Origin: a virus
Taxonomy: Duplodnaviria > Heunggongvirae > Uroviricota > Caudoviricetes
Direction: 5' to 3' (one strand)
Length of the DNA: 64,000 nucleotides
Virus record (IMG/VR): IMGVR_UViG_3300021255_001602
Location: 64,001 to 128,000 of that record
The notes below the pieces were generated by a model, which saw nothing but the letters and a program-made list of their open reading frames with translations, was not told the DNA's origin and searched no databases. Made by a program: the position numbers and the translations under genes. The first letter of the stretch is position 1; each line of letters starts with the position of its first letter. Shown here piece by piece: positions 61,493 to 61,557 of this stretch.

Positions 61493-61557
61493 ACAGGACA
61501 CTGTTAAGAGAAAGAAGATTTCAAGTCTTGTTCTGTTAAGTTTGCTGTAAGTGTCCC
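61493..61557 (-). ncRNA. CAGCAA-module RNA E6 (stand-alone) with Ser(UGA) stem-loop
   Basis: GGGACACT/AGTGTCCT; ACAGCAA; AAGA-CTTGAAA-TCTT. Confidence 0.78.

What the first reader, a model, noticed from the sequence alone, without database searches (positions are those of the whole stretch)
61493..61557. Stand-alone module displaying a Ser(UGA) anticodon loop
Seen: AAGA-CTTGAAA-TCTT inside the stem-closed loop, in the same position as the Lys arm in E1; no tRNA-Ser occurs in this window. Inference: same handle, different payload, i.e. a swappable decoy library.
Basis: partly seen in the sequence, partly recalled or inferred. Interest (0 to 1): 0.7.

Follow-up and report, generated by a model that had tools for sequence, protein, structure and literature searches.

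The report
Phage Ro-like RNA showing serine anticodon loop
A 65-base phage RNA that is not a tRNA holds out a copy of the serine-tRNA(UGA) anticodon loop on a conserved "handle" that travels with a Ro60-shaped protein gene in hundreds of phages, so it is probably bait for something that recognises that tRNA loop.

Summary
On the minus strand, 61557-61493 forms an 8-bp terminal helix, then U+ACAGCAAA, an 11-nt linker, the hairpin AAGA-CUUGAAA-UCUU, a 12-nt linker, the return strand and a final GU.

The cargoes are anticodon-like far beyond chance. Of 260 unique cargoes, 70 carry a 7-nt loop identical to a real tRNA anticodon loop (shuffles 0.97, reversed 0). CUUGAAA is the second commonest. It recurs in divergent lineages with compensatory stem changes and an invariant loop.

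"Same handle, different payload" therefore holds. "Decoy library" is plausible but untested. The loop contains the published VapC10 cleavage consensus CU(U/G)G^AA for tRNA-Ser(UGA).

The closest known system is Ro60 with YrlA-type Y RNAs. The handle also resembles dictyostelid Class I RNAs, below Rfam threshold.

This scan has already noted the same system on other DNA (156 notes, at least 119 genomes). My paper searches found no publication describing it.

The parts
61550..61557 (-). Handle, 5' strand (GGGACACU). It pairs with 61495-61502; the outermost pair is G.U and the third pair is G-C.
   Evidence: Sequence; fold; RNAalifold on 9 Ser-type modules predicts the helix; 3 of 8 pairs change on both sides; the third pair is G-C in 263 of 263 modules.
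61541..61549 (-). Single-stranded U + ACAGCAAA motif directly after the 5' handle strand.
   Evidence: ACAGCRAA occurs 15 times in the window against 4.3 expected, and 7 of these lie at 60.5-64 kb on the minus strand. The motif is invariant in alignment A2.
61530..61540 (-). 11-nt A-rich linker (CUUAACAGAAC).
   Evidence: Similar linkers (CUAACA..AAA) occur in distant Ser-type modules, which suggests common descent.
61515..61529 (-). Cargo: anticodon-arm mimic with stem AAGA/UCUU and loop CUUGAAA (anticodon UGA = Ser at 61521-61523).
   Evidence: The loop is identical to that of all 26 real tRNA-Ser(UGA) genes in related loci. The loop is invariant and the stem covaries in 3 of 5 pairs.
61503..61514 (-). 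12-nt pyrimidine-rich 3' linker.
   Evidence: Sequence. It can extend the hairpin (AGAA/UUCU) in the minimum-free-energy fold.
61493..61502 (-). Handle, 3' strand AGUGUCCU plus terminal GU (the 3' signature ..GUCCUGU).
   Evidence: The 3' signature R-Y-C-N-W-G was used as a filter: in the first 93 DUF2828 loci it gave 182 gene-strand against 0 opposite-strand modules; in the 160 loci L134-L293 the refined scan gave 237 against 1.
62148..63656 (-). Candidate protein partner: a 502-aa DUF2828 + DUF7788 (vWA) protein with the Ro60 fold.
60532..60599 (-).
   Evidence: Its arm equals the anticodon arm of the window's tRNA-Lys at 59640-59715.
63888..63943 (-). Sibling stand-alone module whose cargo is not anticodon-like (UUGAU-AGCGG-AUCAA).
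61181..61268 (-). Sibling module whose cargo is a Cys(GCA)-like arm plus a T arm.
63675..63755 (-). Sibling module of the GUGAC/GUCAUG handle class with a T-arm-like cargo.

Best explanation
The 65-nt stretch encodes a small non-coding RNA of a Y-RNA-like family. Its two ends pair into a conserved handle: a 7-8 bp helix with an invariant G-C third pair, the single-stranded ACAGCAA motif, and a 3' ..CUG(U) end. This handle is most likely the binding site for the phage's Ro60-shaped DUF2828/vWA protein, encoded about 600 nt upstream on the same strand. The interior is cargo: a mimic of the tRNA-Ser(UGA) anticodon arm, held out from the ring protein. I infer that the particle presents this loop as bait for a factor that reads or cuts that anticodon loop, such as a tRNA-Ser-specific anticodon nuclease or a loop-modifying enzyme. 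It would either soak the factor up or tether it to the ring, as Y RNAs tether PNPase to Ro60. Shown here: the structure, the family, the gene association, the protein's fold and selection on the loop. Inferred: transcription and processing, protein binding, and the identity of the target.
For: Family and partner gene. In 160 DUF2828 loci there are 237 modules on the gene strand and 1 on the other. 113 loci have at least one module, and 103 modules end within 250 nt upstream of the gene. Modules also occur in 36 of the 67 loci that have no tRNA gene. Among loci fetched by the DNA pattern alone, 12 of 18 with a closed module also hold DUF2828, against 0 of 99 without one.

Cargo. 98 of 260 unique cargoes have an anticodon-like hairpin (shuffles 9.6, maximum 16; reversed pattern 12). 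70 of 260 have a loop identical to a real anticodon loop (shuffles 0.97; reversed 0), and CUUGAAA ranks second with 9.

Ser-type modules. They occur in lineages whose proteins are only 38-40% identical to this one. The loop is invariant, and 3 of 5 stem pairs and 3 of 8 handle pairs are compensatory.

Link to Y RNAs. Long family members with a permuted tRNA core match Rfam YrlA at E 4e-8.

Targets exist. tRNA-Ser(UGA) is cut by VapC10 at CU(U/G)G^AA in this loop, and over-expressing the target tRNA counteracts the toxin (PMC10945364).
Against: No binding was tested.

The hairpin stem is only 4 bp, followed by a C.C mismatch, is AT-rich, and closes with A31-U39. Real tRNA-Ser(UGA) genes close with U31-A39 and have GC-richer stems, so a stem-reading enzyme might not accept it.

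The single-sequence fold is not more stable than shuffles.

My scanner requires complementarity, so the covariation counts are not independent evidence. The Ser-type set contains only three or four lineages.

162 of 260 cargoes have no anticodon-like hairpin.

The handle does not carry the canonical Ro60-binding sequence, and the protein has no Pfam TROVE hit.
Confidence: 0.6

Rival explanations
1. One reading: the modules are a library of decoys that competitively absorb host anticodon nucleases, and this one protects tRNA-Ser(UGA). This is a sub-case of the best explanation, scored separately.
For: The loop contains the VapC10/VapC30-type cleavage consensus CU(U/G)G^AA. The commonest cargoes include Lys UUU and Asn GUU, which are known tRNase targets (PrrC and PARIS for Lys, colicin E5 for Asn; my own knowledge). 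A one-base Lys to Asn switch occurs on a fixed handle. The phage has no tRNA-Ser gene of its own to replenish a cut pool, and I found neither an RtcB nor a Pfam RNA_ligase (PF09414) gene.
Against: No nuclease is identified in any host. The stems differ from real tRNA-Ser. The cargo repertoire is broad and only modestly skewed relative to the tRNA genes of the same loci. A bare decoy would not need a Ro60-like ring. Many cargoes are T arms, whole permuted tRNA cores or non-tRNA hairpins.
Confidence: 0.25
2. A cis-acting element: a processing or insulator signal of the tRNA array, or an autoregulatory leader of the DUF2828 gene, with the hairpin incidental.
For: It sits inside a tRNA array, 13 nt upstream of the next tRNA-like gene. 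In other loci many modules lie within 250 nt upstream of the DUF2828 start.
Against: This copy lies about 600 nt downstream of the gene. Modules occur in DUF2828 loci without tRNA genes. Up to 7 copies occur per locus. An invariant loop with a covarying stem, and cargo loops identical to anticodon loops, are not expected of a spacer.
Confidence: 0.08
3. The loop acts by base pairing rather than by protein mimicry, for example by kissing a complementary loop or a T-box specifier in the Firmicute host.
For: Relatives are in Lachnospiraceae and Erysipelotrichaceae, which use T-boxes (my own knowledge). Cargo loops with anticodon AAA, complementary to Lys UUU, also occur.
Against: There is no elbow or 3' NCCA for T-box engagement, and no complementary partner was identified. 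This is pure inference.
Confidence: 0.05
4. A decaying tRNA remnant with no function.
For: It is AT-rich with a weak fold, and it lies among odd tRNA-like genes.
Against: In the close relatives examined the handle and arm are unchanged while the linkers vary. Covariation is seen across lineages with 38-40% protein identity. There is extreme strand and gene association.
Confidence: 0.02

Closest known systems
Ro60 (Rsr) with Y RNAs, especially bacterial and phage YrlA (Rfam RF02553; Chen et al. 2014, PMC4201824) and Thermus phage phiLo Ro60 with Yrl1/Yrl2 (PMC12135203)
   Same: Small RNAs are encoded beside, and on the strand of, a ring-plus-vWA protein. The 5' and 3' ends pair into a conserved stem next to a conserved single-stranded motif. 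The interior is a variable module that mimics tRNA. Long relatives of this module have the same permuted T-arm / closed-acceptor / D-arm core and hit the YrlA model at E 4e-8.
   Different: The protein is DUF2828/DUF7788 with no TROVE hit by sequence. The handle is a helix + ACAGCAA + CUG rather than the bulged helix with CGAA. This module carries only an anticodon arm, which YrlA lacks. There are many copies per genome with different cargoes. The module itself does not match RF02553.
Class I RNAs of dictyostelid social amoebae (Rfam RF01414; Kjellin et al. 2021, PMC7919456)
   Same: About 60 nt long; a short terminal stem starting with G; the adjacent motif CUUACAGCAA (10 of the 11 consensus positions); a variable interior; a 3' end of CUGU. 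It is the only non-tRNA Rfam family that the three short modules of this window hit.
   Different: Scores of 21-25 bits are below the 41.5-bit gathering score. Distant phage handles give no hit. Class I RNAs are eukaryotic, have their own promoter element, and their known direct binder is an RRM protein. Neither common descent nor a shared partner has been shown.
Phage tRNA genes and tRNA over-expression as counter-measures to anticodon nucleases (for example target tRNA expression counteracting VapC10, PMC10945364)
   Same: Both supply extra copies of the targeted anticodon loop.
   Different: This RNA cannot decode: it has no acceptor, D arm or T arm. If it acts here at all, it would titrate the nuclease rather than replenish the tRNA pool.

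Membership tests
Helix+ACAGCAA 'handle' RNAs linked to DUF2828 (unpublished; defined in this scan) | Terminal 7-8 bp helix with a G-C third pair and a 3' ..R-Y-C-N-W-G end | tested here: met
   GGGACACU/AGUGUCCU+G; position table.
Helix+ACAGCAA 'handle' RNAs linked to DUF2828 (unpublished; defined in this scan) | ACAGCAA(A/U) within 0-4 nt of the 5' helix strand | tested here: met
   One U, then ACAGCAAA at 61548-61541.
Helix+ACAGCAA 'handle' RNAs linked to DUF2828 (unpublished; defined in this scan) | Same strand as, and close to, a DUF2828/DUF7788 gene | tested here: met
   The gene is at 63656-62148 (-), about 600 nt upstream. Family-wide the strand count is 237 against 1.
Y RNA / YrlA (RF02553) | Encoded near a Ro60 ortholog on the same strand | tested here: inconclusive
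   The neighbour has the Ro60 fold but no TROVE sequence match. It is a Ro60-like paralog, not a demonstrated ortholog.
Y RNA / YrlA (RF02553) | Canonical Ro60-binding helix (bulged stem with the CGAA/GGUCCGA-type 5' strand) | tested here: not met
   The handle sequence is different. The motif description is from PMC12135203 and PMC4201824.
Y RNA / YrlA (RF02553) | tRNA-like D-arm/T-arm domain, and a covariance-model score above gathering | tested here: not met
   No RF02553 hit at E up to 10. The module has only an anticodon-arm mimic. Longer relatives reach 50 bits against a gathering score of 69.
Y RNA / YrlA (RF02553) | Binds the Ro60 protein | not testable with these tools
   Needs EMSA or co-purification.
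tRNA (RF00005) | Cloverleaf with acceptor, D, anticodon and T arms | tested here: not met
   No ARAGORN or Rfam tRNA call here. Only an anticodon-arm-like hairpin is present.
Dictyostelid Class I RNA (RF01414) | Short terminal stem, adjacent CCUUACAGCAA motif, CUGU 3' end, 42-65 nt | tested here: met
   The cmscan alignment shows the stem, CUUACAGCAA and the ..CUG end. Features as described in PMC7919456.
Dictyostelid Class I RNA (RF01414) | Covariance-model score at or above the gathering score (41.5 bits) | tested here: not met
   24.7 bits; E 0.0055 on 111 nt and 0.35 on 7 kb.
Ro60/TROVE protein (partner gene) | HEAT-repeat ring plus vWA domain with a MIDAS site | tested here: met
Ro60/TROVE protein (partner gene) | Sequence match to Pfam TROVE or to solved Ro60 chains | tested here: not met
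   Pfam gives only DUF2828, DUF7788 and weak VWA_2. phmmer against PDB sequences finds no Ro60.
Anticodon-nuclease decoy (functional class) | Carries the recognition or cleavage site of a known tRNase | tested here: met
   The loop CUUGAAA contains CU(U/G)G^AA, the site of VapC10 on tRNA-Ser(UGA).
Anticodon-nuclease decoy (functional class) | Binds, is cut by, or inhibits such a nuclease | not testable with these tools
   Needs biochemistry.

The most novel reading that the evidence does not exclude
Phages and gut bacteria carry a second, unrecognised kind of Ro/Y-RNA particle. A DUF2828 ring protein would bind a universal helix+ACAGCAA handle, onto which evolution grafts interchangeable pieces of tRNA. 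Bare anticodon arms such as this Ser(UGA) one are among them, giving a programmable display of anticodon loops used in the conflict over tRNAs. The same handle signature in dictyostelid Class I RNAs would then mean that those long-unexplained developmental RNAs are Y-like RNAs of a related protein. The uncharacterised pull-down protein DDB_G0281243 named in 10.1101/2020.04.05.026054 would be the first candidate to check.
Probability: 0.15. Interest if true: 0.9.

Novelty: new variant of a known kind. Interest (0 to 1): 0.62.

Why it matters
Ro60/Y-RNA particles are conserved from bacteria to humans, yet what the tRNA-like part of bacterial Y RNAs is for remains open. This family reduces the mimic to its minimum: a single anticodon arm on a protein-binding handle, in many versions. 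That makes the question directly testable, by asking what binds a displayed Ser(UGA), Lys(UUU) or Asn(GUU) loop.

If the cargoes are baits for anticodon nucleases, this would be an RNA-based phage counter-defence of a new form. The cargo list of a phage would then report which tRNAs its hosts attack.

The resemblance to dictyostelid Class I RNAs, if it reflects homology, would give those RNAs their first mechanistic lead.

This particular module adds one point to what the scan already had. The Ser(UGA) cargo is not a local oddity but an old, recurrent member of the family, kept with an invariant loop and a covarying stem.

Tried and rejected
- Megablast of the array against GenBank phages found no match.
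- phmmer of the protein against PDB sequences found nothing relevant. The fold search was needed.
- I tried to read the host tRNA-Ser(UGA) arm with a pattern search in five related genomes. Matches were at control level. I used the 26 phage-borne tRNA-Ser(UGA) genes instead.
- I asked whether arm-type modules co-occur with a tRNA gene of the same anticodon in the same locus. The count was 12 against 9.1 expected, p about 0.12, which is not significant.
- RtcB and RNA_ligase (PF09414) families are absent from this phage, so there is no evident repair context here.
- Promoter and terminator scans of the array were at chance level.
- Class I RNA hits were not found in five distant loci.
- I tried to find a named dictyostelid DUF2828 homolog through two protein searches. 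Only unnamed metagenomic proteins and one fungal protein appeared, so the DDB_G0281243 idea stays untested.
- Pfam on eight nearby ORFs gave only an AAA_24 hit.
- I considered the handle to be a tRNA acceptor/D-arm remnant. I rejected this because the cargo holds no partner for CAGC as a D stem.

Full report
**What is there**

The window is part of a 140.5-kb phage record. Its last 6 kb is a minus-strand array of tRNA genes. Read on that strand, 61557-61493 is made of these parts, in order:
- an 8-bp closing helix, GGGACACU paired with AGUGUCCU, whose outermost pair is G.U;
- a U and the motif ACAGCAAA;
- an 11-nt linker;
- the hairpin AAGA-CUUGAAA-UCUU;
- a 12-nt linker and the return strand;
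- a terminal GU.

The loop has C32, U33, anticodon UGA, A37 and A38. The minimum-free-energy fold contains both helices, but the energy is not unusual for this composition (z -0.55). Neither ARAGORN nor Rfam calls a tRNA here. No tRNA-Ser was found in the window or in the whole record.

**It is one of a family**

The same layout occurs elsewhere in the window:
- 60599-60532, with a Lys(UUU) arm identical to that of the window's tRNA-Lys;
- 63943-63888, with a cargo that is not tRNA-like;
- 61268-61181 and 63755-63675, with T-arm-bearing cargoes.

A circularly permuted, loop-closed version of the helix plus motif sits inside four odd tRNA-like genes and in the intergenic region at about 62020. 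ACAGCRAA occurs 15 times in the window against 4.3 expected, and seven of these are in this array on this strand.

**The partner gene**

The ORF at 63656-62148 (-) matches Pfam DUF2828 and DUF7788 (vWA), not TROVE. It has no sequence match among solved structures. An AlphaFold model built on 18 homologs (pLDDT 81.6) matches Ro60 and only Ro60 over its full length:
- Foldseek's top 12 hits are frog, human, Deinococcus and Thermus-phage Ro60.
- The MIDAS residues are invariant.

**RNA-gene association**

I fetched 160 loci through this protein, 80 viral and 80 from bacterial genome bins, at 35-90% identity. I scanned them for a helix of at least 7 bp, the motif, a complementary strand and the 3' signature.
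- 237 modules lie on the gene's strand and 1 on the other.
- 113 loci have at least one module.
- 103 modules end within 250 nt upstream of the gene.
- Modules are present in 36 of the 67 loci that have no tRNA gene, so they follow the protein gene, not tRNA arrays.

As a test that does not start from the protein, I looked at 117 loci fetched by a DNA pattern alone. Eighteen had a closed module and 12 of those held DUF2828. None of the 99 unclosed chance matches did.

**Are the cargoes anticodon-like beyond chance?**

Among 260 unique cargoes:
- 98 have a hairpin with a stem of at least 4 bp and a 7-nt loop of the form Y-U-NNN-R-N, T loops excluded. Shuffles give 9.6 on average (maximum 16). 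The same pattern read backwards gives 12, which is chance level.
- 53 have a T-loop hairpin, against 0.2 expected.
- 70 have a loop identical to one of the 74 anticodon loops used at least twice by the 577 tRNA genes of these same loci. Reversed cargoes give 0 and shuffles give 0.97, with a maximum of 4.

The commonest loops are CUUUUAA (Lys, 10), CUUGAAA (Ser UGA, 9), CUGCAAA (Cys, 7) and CUGUUAA (Asn, 6).

**The Ser(UGA) cargo**

Modules with this loop occur in 18 loci:
- close relatives of this phage, with an identical handle and arm and variable linkers;
- two lineages whose proteins are only 38-40% identical, with different stems (UUGAA/UUCAA and UCAAA/UUUGA) and different handles;
- two bacterial bins, where a near-identical loop (CUUGAAG) sits in a whole tRNA-like core.

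In an alignment of nine Ser-type modules the loop is invariant. Three of five stem pairs and three of eight handle pairs change on both sides. 92% of cells are paired, against 20-48% when the partners are slid. RNAalifold predicts the same two helices on its own. The linkers after the motif are similar, which suggests one old module rather than convergence.

All 26 real tRNA-Ser(UGA) genes in these loci have the same loop. Unlike the cargoes, they close it with U31-A39 and have GC-richer stems. The cargo copies the loop, not the arm.

**Swappability**

The orthologous Lys module of a relative differs in the loop by one base, CUUUUAA to CUGUUAA, which makes it Asn(GUU). Handle and stem are unchanged.

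**Comparison with known systems**

Long family members, in which the handle encloses T arm, closed acceptor and D arm, match Rfam YrlA at 50 bits (E 4e-8; gathering score 69). The match rests on the tRNA-like core, not the stem. This ties the family to the Ro60/YrlA paradigm (PMC4201824; phage example PMC12135203).

The handle is not the canonical Ro60-binding helix, the protein is not a sequence-detectable TROVE protein, and arm-only cargo has not been described. Searches for DUF2828 and for phage anticodon decoys found nothing on this.

The three short modules of this window hit one other Rfam family, dictyostelid Class I RNA, at 21-25 bits (gathering 41.5). The alignment covers the stem, CUUACAGCAA and the CUG end. 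These are the features that define Class I RNAs (PMC7919456). Distant handles do not hit it. I checked the alignment and the paper, but I could not test whether dictyostelids pair these RNAs with a DUF2828 protein.

**Mechanism**

By analogy with Y RNAs, I take the handle to dock on the Ro60-like ring and the arm to project as bait.

The tRNase-decoy version is plausible. VapC10 of Sinorhizobium cuts tRNA-Ser(UGA) at CU(U/G)G^AA in this very loop, also cuts loop-presented GAA sites in mRNAs, and is counteracted by extra target tRNA. M. tuberculosis VapC30 is reported to do likewise (PMC10945364). The phage has no tRNA-Ser gene, and I found no RtcB or PF09414-type RNA ligase.

However, nothing here shows expression, binding or a target. 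Arm modules do not track same-anticodon tRNA genes, and most cargoes are not anticodon arms.

**Context within the scan**

The same system has already been noted many times on other DNA (156 notes in at least 119 genomes) and on this window. This report's addition is the quantitative cargo test and the finding that the Ser(UGA) cargo is ancient and under selection.

Noticed in passing
window 61045-61170, 61275-61390, 61393-61480, 63760-63882 (all minus strand): Four tRNA-like genes carry a loop-closed, circularly permuted copy of the handle (nnnUCAU-loop-GUGAnnn, then ACAGCRAA or a variant) in or beside the anticodon arm. ARAGORN calls one of them tRNA-Thr(UGU) of 88 nt, and Rfam calls another a 123-nt tRNA.
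   Followed up: partly
window 61875-62147 (minus strand), hairpin at about 61985-62020: The 270-nt gap between the Ro60-like gene and tRNA-Pro contains another closed handle copy (GCGUCAU-GAUC-GUGACGC, AUGC, ACAGCAAU). It is followed by about 100 nt of GC-richer sequence with no ORF and no Rfam hit, possibly a larger RNA.
   Followed up: no
G000:C1 about 127970-128220, just beyond the window's end (minus strand): A near-consensus promoter (TTGACA, 16 nt, TATAAT) precedes a tRNA-Gln(UUG) and a further, longer handle module (GGGACGC .. GCAGCAAU .. GCGUCCUG). This is likely the start of the array's transcript.
   Followed up: partly
window 59034-59375 (minus strand): A 113-aa ORF consists only of the N-terminal Ia (NAD+-binding) domain of NAD-dependent DNA ligase (Pfam Nlig-Ia, E 2e-29). 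It sits inside the tRNA array.
   Followed up: no
L135:3566-3634 and L081:3568-3632, compared with window 60532-60599: Orthologous modules differ by one loop base, switching the displayed anticodon from Lys(UUU) to Asn(GUU), while handle and stem stay the same.
   Followed up: partly
L191:854-890: A related phage's tRNA array holds a full-score match to the Rfam abiF RNA motif (53.8 bits, gathering 37). That RNA is normally found with an abortive-infection gene, so this may be another phage-borne RNA mimic.
   Followed up: no
L199:5335-5460, L163:2870-2981, L159:3021-3152: In other phages the handle encloses complete circularly permuted tRNA cores (anticodon arm or linker, T arm, loop-closed acceptor, D arm). 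This is the YrlA layout with a different protein-binding stem.
   Followed up: partly
P0241 (954 aa): One long homolog joins DUF2828/DUF7788 to an anaerobic ribonucleotide reductase domain (PF13597). This may be a gene-calling fusion rather than a real protein.
   Followed up: no
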